This document shows, one piece after another, positions 59,772-59,915 of a DNA stretch of 64,000 bases. A model generated the notes under the pieces. It ran no database searches and had not been told where the DNA came from. It worked only from the letters and a program-made list of their open reading frames with translations. This DNA comes from a virus (taxonomy: Duplodnaviria; Heunggongvirae; Uroviricota; Caudoviricetes). The stretch is from the IMG/VR virus record IMGVR_UViG_3300032236_001858; one strand, 5' to 3'. A program made the translations under genes and the position numbers. How positions within the stretch are numbered: the first letter of the stretch is position 1; each line of letters starts with the position of its first letter.

Positions 59772-59915
59772 GGAGAGAGTAGCTCAGTTGGTTAGAGCAC
59801 GTATTCATTCTCTGACAAGGATTCTCTGATTATGGTCAACATAATTAGTAGTGATGTTAAGAGATACTTCGGTCTGTTAAACCCGTGGTCGTAGGTTCGA
59901 GTCCTACCTCTCTCC
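59772..59915 (+). tRNA. interrupted tRNA gene: G-1 and C73 with an Asn-type anticodon GTT, about 68-nt insertion between the D arm and the anticodon arm
   Basis: G-1 precedes acceptor GAGAGAG/CTCTCTC. D arm GCTC-AGTTGGTTA-GAGC at 59782-59798. Anticodon arm TCGGT-CTGTTAA-ACCCG at 59869-59885. T arm GTAGG-TTCGAGT-CCTAC. Confidence 0.35.

What the first reader, a model, noticed from the sequence alone, without database searches (positions are those of the whole stretch)
59772..59915. tRNA gene split by a 68-nt insertion between the D arm and the anticodon arm, combining His identity features (G-1, C73) with an Asn anticodon (GTT)
The 5' part is a textbook acceptor plus D arm (G-1, GAGAGAG, TA, GCTCAGTTGGTTAGAGC). 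The matching 3' acceptor strand and T arm lie 110 nt downstream. An anticodon arm (loop CTGTTAA) precedes the T arm, leaving about 68 nt (59799-59868) inserted at a position that is not the canonical intron site. The insert holds a 9-nt direct repeat, ATTCTCTGA, twice. G-1:C73 is the main HisRS identity determinant, and a HisRS-like gene starts 29 nt downstream.
Basis: seen in the sequence. Interest (0 to 1): 0.75.

Follow-up and report, generated by a model that had tools for sequence, protein, structure and literature searches.

The report
tRNA carrying a Y-RNA-like arm
A phage tRNA-like gene has a 69-base structured hairpin inside its anticodon stem, and related hairpin-bearing tRNAs in other phages sit next to Ro60-type RNA-binding protein genes, so it is probably an unannotated tRNA/Y-RNA hybrid rather than a broken or simply intron-split tRNA.

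Summary
Positions 59772-59915 encode a complete tRNA: G-1:C73, D arm, T arm and a GUU anticodon loop. A 69-nt insert (59802-59870) interrupts it inside the anticodon stem, between positions 28 and 29. Removing the insert in silico gives a perfect tRNA-Asn(GTT).

It is not unique. A second insert-bearing gene lies at 60586-60713, on the other side of the mini-HisRS gene. I collected 42 distinct insert-bearing tRNAs from phage and metagenome contigs. 35 of them are interrupted at 28/29, and ARAGORN fails to call any of those I checked as a full-length gene.

Two insert flavours exist. Each lies next to, and on the same strand as, its own flavour of Ro60-like gene: TROVE, or DUF2828/DUF7788. This holds in 8 lineages, including cultured crAss001, where these RNAs are unannotated. 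The parts match a YrlA Y RNA written in tRNA order.

G-1:C73 with a non-His anticodon occurs in 9 of 41 insert-bearing tRNAs and in 0 of 349 ordinary ones.

Best reading, at 0.5: a tRNA/Y-RNA chimera whose Ro-binding arm is retained. Main rival, at 0.25: a protein-spliced intron. No Ro-like gene lies in this window.

The parts
59772..59801 (+). t1 5' segment: G-1, acceptor 5' strand, U8 A9, D arm, A26, C27 G28 (top 2 nt of the anticodon stem)
   Evidence: Read from the sequence. Part of the cloverleaf that ARAGORN accepts after excision.
59802..59870 (+). 69-nt insert ('type A' module). Starts UA. Helix P1 is UCUCU(GAC) 59809-59817 paired with 59855-59864. Inner hairpin 59826-59848. GUG at 59851-59853. 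UAC at 59865-59867 can pair with G28-U-A. Tail UUC at 59868-59870. The 5' strand of P1 is duplicated (ATTCTCTGA at 59807 and 59821).
   Evidence: MFE fold, constrained fold, repeat positions. Homology to the inserts of t2, L049 and crAss001. P1 helix statistics.
59871..59915 (+). t1 3' segment: G29 G30 U31, loop CUGUUAA (anticodon GUU), A39-G43, variable loop UGGUC, T arm, acceptor 3' strand, C73
   Evidence: (partial Rfam tRNA match 59847-59909).
59944..60576 (+). Mini-HisRS ORF (210 aa). It keeps motif 2, RGLDYY and GGGSYD, and lacks the insertion domain and the anticodon-binding domain.
   Evidence: Pfam, PDB alignment to HisRS residues 6-140 and 252-315, NCBIfam hisS 158 bits, below the cut-off of 287.
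60586..60713 (+). t2: second insert-bearing tRNA-like gene. Acceptor GGGGAUG/CAUCCCC. Insert at about 60611-60666, ending GAGAGUUACUUCG. Anticodon arm UAUAU-UUUGAAA-UUAUA with a U.U closing pair.
   Evidence: Weak Rfam tmRNA match (31 bits) and YrlA match (20.5 bits). The acceptor stem is identical to the RNA next to crAss001 gp96 and to L067/L070.
59657..59762 (+). t0: 106-nt tRNA-like gene with acceptor, D and T arms, an irregular anticodon loop (GUUAAUC) and a 38-nt variable region containing GACCGAAG
   Evidence: Not called by ARAGORN or Rfam.

Best explanation
t1 is a chimeric small-RNA gene. It is a complete tRNA body (8-bp acceptor stem with G-1:C73, D arm, T arm, GUU anticodon hairpin). 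Its anticodon stem carries, between positions 28 and 29, a 69-nt structured arm of the kind that serves as the protein-binding module of Y RNAs.

Proposed mechanism (inferred, not shown):
1. The RNA is cut out of the tRNA-array transcript by RNase P and 3' processing, like its neighbours.
2. It keeps the arm. The arm projects from a three-way junction in the anticodon stem.
3. The arm binds a Ro60-family (TROVE) protein, encoded elsewhere in this large phage genome or by the host.
4. The tRNA body engages tRNA-binding enzymes. Because of G-1:C73, the most likely partner is a histidyl-tRNA synthetase, possibly the anticodon-domain-less mini-HisRS encoded 29 nt downstream.

The RNA would thus act as a tether or gate, as the bacterial Y RNA YrlA does, rather than as a decoder of Asn codons.

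Shown: the anatomy, the family, the co-location and co-variation with Ro-like genes, and the enrichment of G-1:C73.

Inferred: retention of the arm, Ro binding by t1 itself, and any link to HisRS.
For: 1. Family. The same interruption, mostly right after C27 G28, occurs in 42 distinct tRNA genes. 35 of the 42 are interrupted at 28/29 and 27 of the 42 inserts start with UA. One pattern gave 18 hits in viral contigs and 2 in 185,579 cellular genomes.

2. Neighbourhood. Clustering the ORFs of the loci found a TROVE + Ro60-vWA protein next to type-A inserts (L033, L049, L054/L067/L070/L074, L086). It found a DUF7788/DUF2828 protein next to type-B inserts (L025/L028, L032/L038, L036, L043). Both proteins match phrog_850 'RNA-binding protein' over their full length. 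The RNA genes lie about 80-500 nt from the protein gene on the same strand. In the tRNA arrays of L032, L033 and L043 they are the RNA genes nearest to it. Insert flavour co-varies with protein flavour in 4 + 4 lineages.

3. crAss001. In cultured crAss001 the unannotated 0.9-kb gap after the TROVE gene gp96 holds two such RNAs. One has the same acceptor stem as t2. The gap also holds two more GUG...ACUUACUUC motifs.

4. Architecture. The Rfam YrlA consensus reads: D arm, short helix, uAuG, helix, then the GNCGAA strand, helix, CUA, short helix, T arm. These are the same parts as in t1, in circularly permuted order. The Rsr-binding motif GNCGAAN0-1G (PMC4201824) is exact in L049 (GGCGAAG) and in L079 (GCCGAAG). 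GNCG recurs at the same place in other members of normal GC content. AT-rich members, including t1 (GAUG) and t2 (GUUG), have GNUG there.

5. Conserved structure. A helix abuts the UAC motif with a different sequence in each lineage. Its mean length is 7.7 bp against 4.8 bp in shuffled inserts, and 0 of 500 shuffles reach the observed value.

6. Identity conflicts. 14 of the 42 genes have one: G-1:C73 with a non-His anticodon, Ser or Leu anticodons in a short-variable-loop body, or the anticodon AUU. RNAs sharing t2's acceptor stem carry different anticodons (UGA, UGU, AGG), and crAss001 RNA 1 has a 9-nt loop. Decoding is therefore not what is conserved there.

7. Precedents. Phage Ro60 genes with adjacent Y-like RNAs are known (PMC4201824; PMC12135203). 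T4 species 1 RNA is a 139-nt RNA in the T4 tRNA cluster, annotated as stable, in which I read a T arm.

8. Feasibility. The cloverleaf with a three-way junction costs only 4.6 kcal/mol more than the MFE structure.
Against: - No Ro-like ORF lies in the 64-kb window (tblastn). None was seen in the two closest huge-phage records.
- t1 and t2 lack the exact GNCGAA motif. A simple motif-plus-helix scan of the window is not significant on its own.
- The anticodon stem is restored perfectly by precise removal of the insert, and the anticodon loop is fully canonical. This is what a spliced, decoding tRNA would need.
- In orthologous pairs the tRNA parts are more conserved than the insert (96.6% versus 83.6%).
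- Several family members that sit inside large tRNA arrays are not near a Ro gene within the fetched flanks.
- The family was collected with patterns anchored on one D-arm and variable-loop sequence, so the census is biased.
- There are no expression data.
Confidence: 0.5

Rival explanations
1. The insert is a true intron. A protein endonuclease cuts at G28|U and before G29. The resulting nick lies inside the anticodon-stem duplex and is sealed by an RNA ligase. The product is a 76-nt tRNA that decodes AAY codons, charged with Asn or, because of G-1:C73, with His. Ro-like proteins, where present, would be splicing cofactors, or the excised hairpin would itself be the Y RNA.
For: - Precise removal restores a perfect 5-bp stem in t1 and in nearly all family members. 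In the pattern-derived set, which is less biased, 28 of 30 real members reach 5 bp.
- The anticodon loops are canonical, with 19 different anticodons.
- The tRNA parts are more conserved than the inserts.
- t1 is the only GUU tRNA in the window's array.
- A nick in a duplex is the preferred substrate of Rnl2-type ligases (established knowledge). In the closest relatives, two PF09414 RNA ligase genes flank the mini-HisRS gene.
Against: - No bacterial or phage enzyme is known that removes such an insert.
- There is no bulge-helix-bulge motif at the junctions (manual check).
- At 39-69 nt the inserts are far too short for group I or II introns. No Rfam ribozyme or intron family matches even at E <= 10.
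- The 3' junction lies at a variable distance (0-4 nt, or 7-18 nt in type B) from the conserved motifs.
- The two insert flavours share no catalytic-core-like sequence.
- One third of the members have identity conflicts that make them poor decoders.
- No insert-free allele was found.
Confidence: 0.25
2. The insert is a small selfish DNA element (MITE- or PATE-like) that landed in tRNA genes. t1 is an inactivated pseudogene or a neutral passenger.
For: - Similar inserts occur in several different tRNA genes of one genome (for example Asp and Pro in L034, L063 and L078).
- The insertion site is nearly constant, after CG.
- Homing-endonuclease genes lie in these arrays (HNH ORF 58686-59228).
Against: - There is no target-site duplication. 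The CG...CG repeat cannot be one without shortening the stem.
- The tRNA parts stay intact and evolve more slowly than the insert.
- The helices keep pairing through compensatory changes.
- The inserts show a specific partnership with Ro-like genes.
- No copies of the module lie outside tRNA genes in the window.
Confidence: 0.1
3. t1 is a cis-acting tRNA-like leader that regulates the mini-HisRS mRNA 29 nt downstream, as an autoregulatory operator that mimics the enzyme's substrate.
For: - It lies 29 nt upstream of the ORF on the same strand.
- It carries the main HisRS identity element, G-1:C73.
- t1, the mini-HisRS gene and t2 form a block that is absent from the syntenic array of LR745206.1.
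Against: - In 21 related loci the mini-HisRS gene has no such element upstream.
- The same kind of RNA occurs in dozens of loci without any HisRS gene.
Confidence: 0.05

Closest known systems
YrlA, the tRNA-like bacterial/phage Y RNA (Rfam RF02553; Chen et al. 2014, PMC4201824)
   Same: - tRNA-type D and T arms and an acceptor-like stem.
- A protein-binding helix that emerges where the anticodon stem starts.
- A short helix, an internal loop beginning UA, then a longer helix.
- A GNCG(AA)-type strand on the side leading to the T arm.
- In family members, the gene lies next to a Ro60 orthologue on the same strand.
   Different: - The order of parts is circularly permuted. In YrlA the Ro stem carries the RNA ends and the acceptor stem is closed by a loop. 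Here the acceptor stem is open, as in a tRNA, and the arm is closed by a loop.
- A full anticodon hairpin is kept.
- The Rfam model scores only 20-25 bits against a cut-off of 69.
- t1 lacks the exact GNCGAA motif and has no Ro gene within 64 kb.
Yrl1/Yrl2 of Thermus phage phiLo with phage Ro60 (PMC12135203)
   Same: Phage-encoded Y-like RNAs lie just upstream of a phage Ro60 gene. The same layout is seen in L032, L033, L036, L043, L049 and L086.
   Different: As far as I read that paper, those RNAs were identified by structure and a CGAA motif and are not described as complete tRNAs. t1 is a complete tRNA body.
Irregular G-1 tRNA(GGU) species of acidobacterial polycistrons (Mukai et al. 2017, PMC5389517)
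   Same: A His-type acceptor end (G-1) is combined with a non-His anticodon. That paper showed charging by E. coli HisRS in vitro, but no His insertion at ACC codons in E. coli.
   Different: No insert in the anticodon stem and no Ro context. Those RNAs are linked to toxin-antitoxin loci.
Phage T4 species 1 RNA (rnaC, 139 nt) in the T4 tRNA cluster
   Same: An RNA annotated as stable and encoded within a phage tRNA array. I read a T arm, acceptor-like end pairing and a long internal insertion in its sequence.
   Different: No sequence similarity to t1, no clear D arm or anticodon arm, and no Ro gene in T4. That its function is unknown is my own knowledge, not a tool result.
Archaeal non-canonical tRNA introns (bulge-helix-bulge) and bacterial group I tRNA introns (for example PMC13011429)
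   Same: They interrupt a tRNA gene so that standard finders miss it, and precise removal restores a cloverleaf.
   Different: t1 has no BHB motif, no group I core, and is only 69 nt. Its position is in the stem at 28/29, whereas the bacterial group I introns reported sit in the anticodon loop.

Membership tests
YrlA-type Y RNA (RF02553) | Reaches the Rfam gathering score (69 bits) | tested here: not met
   Best matches are 25.2 bits (59737-59798, spanning the T arm of t0 and the D arm of t1) and 20.5 bits (60661-60769).
YrlA-type Y RNA (RF02553) | Encoded next to a Ro60/Rsr (TROVE) gene | tested here: not met
   No TROVE or DUF2828 homologue in the window by tblastn or Pfam. Met for homologous RNAs in 8 other lineages.
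YrlA-type Y RNA (RF02553) | Rsr-binding motif GNCGAAN0-1G | tested here: not met
   t1 has GAUGUUAAG and t2 has GUUGAUUG at the corresponding place. The motif is exact in L049 (GGCGAAG) and L079 (GCCGAAG).
YrlA-type Y RNA (RF02553) | tRNA-like D arm and T arm with conserved tRNA nucleotides | tested here: met
   GCUC-AGUUGGUUA-GAGC and GUAGG-UUCGAGU-CCUAC.
YrlA-type Y RNA (RF02553) | The 5' and 3' ends form the Ro-binding stem (permuted order) | tested here: not met
   The ends of t1 form the acceptor stem and the arm is closed by a loop.
YrlA-type Y RNA (RF02553) | Physical binding to Ro60 | not testable with these tools
   Needs RIP or EMSA.
Canonical tRNA-Asn | Contiguous cloverleaf detected by tRNA finders | tested here: not met
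   ARAGORN and Rfam at gathering threshold miss it. It is detected only after in-silico excision.
Canonical tRNA-Asn | GUU anticodon plus G73 discriminator (the E. coli AsnRS identity set, from established knowledge) | tested here: not met
   GUU is present but the discriminator is C73. The phage tRNA-Asn genes of L008 have G73.
tRNA-His | G-1:C73 extra base pair | tested here: met
   G 59772 pairs with C 59915. Among 361 ordinary tRNAs of the same loci this pair occurs only in tRNA-His.
tRNA-His | GUG anticodon | tested here: not met
   The loop is CUGUUAA, giving GUU.
Group I / group II intron | Catalytic core detectable, size above about 200 nt | tested here: not met
   The insert is 69 nt and no Rfam intron or ribozyme family matches at E <= 10.
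Archaeal-type BHB intron | Two 3-nt bulges separated by a 4-bp helix at the splice sites | tested here: not met
   Manual pairing of the junction sequences in both possible arrangements found no such motif (sequence).

The most novel reading that the evidence does not exclude
Phages have a protein-dependent tRNA splicing pathway that has not been described in bacteria or phages. The hairpin in the anticodon stem would be recognised by a Ro60-family protein and cut out precisely, and the nick in the stem would be sealed by an Rnl2-type phage RNA ligase. This would release both a Y RNA and a mature tRNA. In t1's case the mature tRNA carries the full HisRS identity set (G-1:C73) and reads Asn codons. 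It could be charged by the adjacent anticodon-blind mini-HisRS, giving deliberate His-for-Asn decoding or a charged tRNA used outside translation.
Probability: 0.15. Interest if true: 0.95.

Novelty: new variant of a known kind. Interest (0 to 1): 0.7.

Why it matters
If this reading is right, a whole class of phage small RNAs has been overlooked because tRNA finders skip them. These are complete tRNAs that carry a Ro60-type binding arm. They are present even in the model gut phage crAss001.

Three consequences would follow:
- The parts would appear in tRNA order, as expected of an intermediate between tRNAs and the permuted YrlA Y RNAs. This bears on the proposal in Chen et al. [quoted passage not shown]
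- Two Ro-like protein families, including the uncharacterised DUF2828/DUF7788 family, would gain candidate RNA partners.
- The strong enrichment of the histidine acceptor signature on non-His anticodons, next to an anticodon-domain-less HisRS, gives a concrete and testable candidate for the long-sought partner of the tRNA-like half of such Y RNAs.

The main experiments can be done in a cultured system, crAss001 on Bacteroides intestinalis.

Tried and rejected
- **Bulge-helix-bulge motif.** Checked at both junctions in both possible arrangements. None found.
- **Known introns and ribozymes.** Rfam scans at permissive E-values found no group I or II intron, hammerhead, twister, pistol or hatchet. 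Only tRNA, weak tmRNA and weak YrlA matches appeared.
- **Target-site duplication or MITE.** The CG...CG flanks cannot be a duplication, and L026 lacks them.
- **Kink-turn reading of GGCGAAGA in L049.** The partner strand does not fit, and the motif is not conserved.
- **Insert-free alleles.** Exact searches of viral contigs for the t1 3' half and for a spliced Pro tRNA found nothing.
- **Orthologues of t1 in the closest relatives.** The syntenic array of LR745206.1 lacks the block t0-t1-HisRS-t2. L003-L005 have no tRNAs near the gene.
- **Motif scans of the window for more copies of the module.** Only t2 matches exactly. The motif, and the motif plus helix, are not significant genome-wide.
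- **Ro-like genes in the window and in huge-phage relatives.** None found. The 735-kb phage LR756501 has a DUF2828 gene, but no tRNA-like RNA was detected beside it.
- **-1:73 pairing in general.** It is common in ordinary phage tRNAs too (U-1 with A73), so only G-1:C73 is informative.
- **Redundancy with insert-free copies of the same anticodon.** Found in 7 of 16 cases, which decides nothing.
- **GNCGAA-like strings in t0 and in the odd tRNA-His at 58141-58225.** The second is probably just a GAAA-tetraloop hairpin.

Full report
**What is there.** The window carries a dense tRNA array on the + strand at about 58141-61390, in a low-GC genome. Its closest database relatives are uncultured 'huge' phages of 635-642 kb, LR745206.1 and LR756502.1.

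The boundaries need one correction. C27 G28 (59800-59801) lie upstream of the insert and G29 G30 U31 (59871-59873) lie downstream of it. Together they pair perfectly with A39-G43 (59881-59885). The insert is therefore 59802-59870 (69 nt) and sits inside the anticodon stem at 28/29.

ARAGORN and Rfam at gathering threshold miss the gene. After in-silico excision ARAGORN calls a 75-nt tRNA-Asn(gtt). The 9-nt repeat ATTCTCTGA (59807 and 59821) duplicates the 5' strand of the insert's main helix.

**It is not alone in the window.** A scan for a T arm with a matching acceptor strand found a second interrupted gene, t2, at 60586-60713. It lies just past the HisRS-like ORF, and its insert ends ...GAGAGUUACUUCG. 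The t1 insert ends ...AGAGAUACUUC. The scan also found a 106-nt tRNA-like gene, t0, at 59657-59762. The block t0-t1-ORF-t2 is absent from the otherwise syntenic array of LR745206.1.

**A large family.** Three pattern scans were anchored on the D arm and on the variable and T loops. A parser was then run over all fetched loci. Together they gave 42 distinct insert-bearing tRNAs.

- One pattern had 18 hits in IMG/VR viral contigs and only 2 hits in 185,579 cellular genomes.
- 35 of the 42 are interrupted at 28/29.
- The last upstream base is G in 32 of 42.
- The insert starts with UA in 27 of 42.
- Inserts are 39-69 nt long, and 19 different anticodons occur.

With laxer filters the Rfam tRNA model spans many of these genes end to end at 43-59 bits. 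ARAGORN does not call as a full-length gene any of those I checked, at most reporting a partial tRNA inside one.

In 19 orthologous pairs the tRNA parts are 96.6% identical and the inserts 83.6%. The genes are therefore not decaying pseudogenes.

Two insert flavours exist:

- Type A: ...GUG(G/A/U)(C/U)G, about 9 nt including the 3' strand of a helix, then (G)UUAC(UU...). It occurs in t1, t2, L033, L035, L049, L054, L056, L067, L068 and L086.
- Type B: a hairpin, then (A/U)AAC(A/U)GCAA, then a U-rich tail.

In type A, a helix of different sequence in each lineage abuts the UAC. Its mean length is 7.7 bp against 4.8 bp in shuffled inserts, and 0 of 500 shuffles reach the observed value.

**The turning point: neighbours.** I clustered all ORFs of the loci and annotated the top clusters.

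- Type-A loci share a TROVE + Ro60-vWA protein.
- Type-B loci share a DUF7788/DUF2828 protein.
- Both proteins match phrog_850 'RNA-binding protein' over their whole length.

In L032, L033, L036, L043, L049 and L086 the insert-bearing tRNA genes lie 150-470 nt upstream of the Ro-like gene on the same strand. In L054, L067, L070 and crAss001 they follow it. Insert flavour and protein flavour co-vary without exception in 4 + 4 lineages.

The type-A protein of L070 is 78% identical to gp96 (TROVE) of cultured Bacteroides phage crAss001. The unannotated gap after gp96 holds two such RNAs:

- L094 5193-5336, which scores 46.6 bits with the tRNA model and has a 9-nt 'anticodon' loop.
- L094 5448-5589, whose acceptor stem GGGGAUG/CAUCCCC is identical to that of t2.

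The same gap holds two further GUG...ACUUACUUCAA motifs.

**Comparison with Y RNAs.** Y RNAs are encoded beside Ro60 genes in bacteria and phages. The YrlA class mimics tRNA (PMC4201824). Thermus phage phiLo has two Y-like RNAs upstream of its Ro60 gene (PMC12135203).

The Rfam YrlA consensus reads: GNCGAA strand, helix, CUA, 4-bp helix, variable region, T arm, acceptor hairpin, D arm, 4-bp helix, uAuG, helix. These are the parts of t1 in circularly permuted order. In t1 the acceptor stem is open, the protein-binding stem is closed by a loop, and a real anticodon hairpin branches off.

The published Rsr-binding motif GNCGAAN0-1G is exact in L049 (GGCGAAG) and L079 (GCCGAAG). GNCG recurs at the same place in other members of normal GC content. 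The AT-rich members, including t1 and t2, have GNUG there. The motif evidence is only suggestive. The neighbourhood evidence is strong.

**Identity features.** Among 361 distinct ordinary tRNAs of the same loci, G-1:C73 occurs only in tRNA-His (12 of 12). Among insert-bearing tRNAs it occurs 10 times, 9 of them with non-His anticodons (UUG, GGU, GGG, GUU twice, GCU, UGA, GAU, UUC). This is 9 of 41 against 0 of 349 (Fisher p = 7e-10).

In all, 14 of the 42 carry some identity conflict. The RNAs that share t2's acceptor stem differ in anticodon (UGA, UGU, AGG). Mukai et al. 2017 showed that natural G-1 tRNAs with a GGU anticodon are charged by E. coli HisRS in vitro but did not insert His at ACC codons in E. 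coli (PMC5389517).

The ORF 29 nt downstream of t1 is a 210-aa minimal HisRS core. It keeps motif 2, RGLDYY and GGGSYD, and has no insertion domain and no anticodon-binding domain. It is conserved in at least 21 viral contigs and often lies in tRNA arrays. In the closest relatives it is flanked by two PF09414 RNA ligase genes.

**Interpretation.** The best-supported reading is that t1 is a tRNA/Y-RNA chimera. The insert would be a Ro60-family binding arm. The tRNA body would be the second module, plausibly recognised by a HisRS-type enzyme through G-1:C73. I put retention of the arm at 0.5.

The main rival, at 0.25, is that the arm is a true intron removed by proteins and the nick sealed by a ligase. 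The points in its favour are the perfect 2+3 restoration of the stem, the canonical anticodon loops, and the fact that t1 is the only GUU tRNA in this array.

The points against it are:

- no known enzyme removes such an insert;
- no BHB motif;
- no match to any Rfam intron or ribozyme family;
- variable spacing of the 3' junction from the conserved motifs;
- frequent identity conflicts.

The unspliced cloverleaf with a three-way junction is only 4.6 kcal/mol above the MFE structure.

The weak points of my reading for t1 itself are three. No Ro-like gene lies in the 64-kb window or was detected in the two nearest huge-phage records. The motif in t1 is degenerate. The family census is biased by the anchoring patterns.

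**Novelty.** The searches I could run in the held library found no description of complete tRNAs with a Ro-type arm in the anticodon stem, and none of Y-like RNAs in crAss-like phages. I rate this a new variant of a known kind (Y RNAs that mimic tRNA). It comes with a testable link to HisRS and to RNA repair genes.

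Noticed in passing
window 60586-60713: Second insert-bearing tRNA-like gene (t2). Its insert ends GAGAGUUACUUCG. Its acceptor stem is identical to RNAs encoded next to the TROVE gene of crAss001-like phages. Its anticodon arm is imperfect (U.U closing pair, loop UUUGAAA).
   Followed up: yes
window 59657-59762: 106-nt tRNA-like gene (t0), missed by ARAGORN and Rfam. It has an irregular anticodon loop and a 38-nt variable region containing GACCGAAG, which resembles the Ro60-contacted GGUCCGA/GNCGAA motif.
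   Followed up: partly
window 59944-60576: 210-aa minimal HisRS-like protein without an anticodon-binding domain. It is conserved (55-87% identity) in at least 21 viral contigs and often lies in tRNA arrays. In the closest relatives (L001-L005) it is flanked by two PF09414 RNA ligase genes.
   Followed up: partly
window 59383-59649; also L001 2446-2711: Three tRNAs with Lys anticodons (UUU twice, CUU once) that carry long, type-II-like variable arms (83-88 nt). They are conserved in LR745206.1.
   Followed up: no
window 60793-60928; also L001 about 2784-2915: A 25-codon Ser-rich ORF (MKTIMLTSKSSSSRSSKPSEVRSYS) is followed by a strong terminator hairpin (from 60893). It lies just upstream of tRNA-Arg and several tRNA-Ser genes. 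It looks like a leader-peptide attenuator controlling tRNA genes, and it is conserved in the relative.
   Followed up: no
window 58141-58225 and 58473-58543: An 85-nt tRNA-His-like gene (G-1:C73, GUG) with an enlarged D region containing a GUC-GAAA-GAC hairpin. Also a 71-nt tRNA-like gene with a CCA anticodon (weak tRNA-Sec match). ARAGORN misses both.
   Followed up: no
window 58686-59228: An HTH + HNH endonuclease ORF sits inside the tRNA array and is probably a homing endonuclease. A LAGLIDADG-like ORF lies at 52426-53298.
   Followed up: no
L094 (NC_049977.1, crAss001) 4920-5824: The unannotated 0.9-kb gap after TROVE gene gp96 contains two insert-bearing tRNA-like RNAs and two further GUG...ACUUACUUCAA motifs. 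These are probably the unrecognised Y RNAs of this model phage.
   Followed up: partly
L064 (JAEEGI010248833.1) 251-727 and 1357-2267: Type-B insert-bearing tRNAs (Pro UGG and a UUU tRNA) lie on the same short contig as the start of a bacterial-type 23S rRNA gene (785 bits). Some cellular organism may therefore carry them too. A further tRNA on the contig has an insert of about 110 nt.
   Followed up: no
L025/L028 (rc about 490-920) and L024/L027/L029: tRNA 5' halves ending ...GAGCACG|UAU are followed by repeated (U)AACAGCAAAU motifs and scattered tRNA fragments, next to a DUF2828-type gene. These may be tRNA-like genes with several inserts. I could not parse them.
   Followed up: no
L008 1687-1775, L011 1026-1115, L013 475-564: Unusually long (89-90 nt) tRNA-His genes cluster with several tRNA-Asn genes upstream of the mini-HisRS gene. 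This is a recurring His/Asn association.
   Followed up: no
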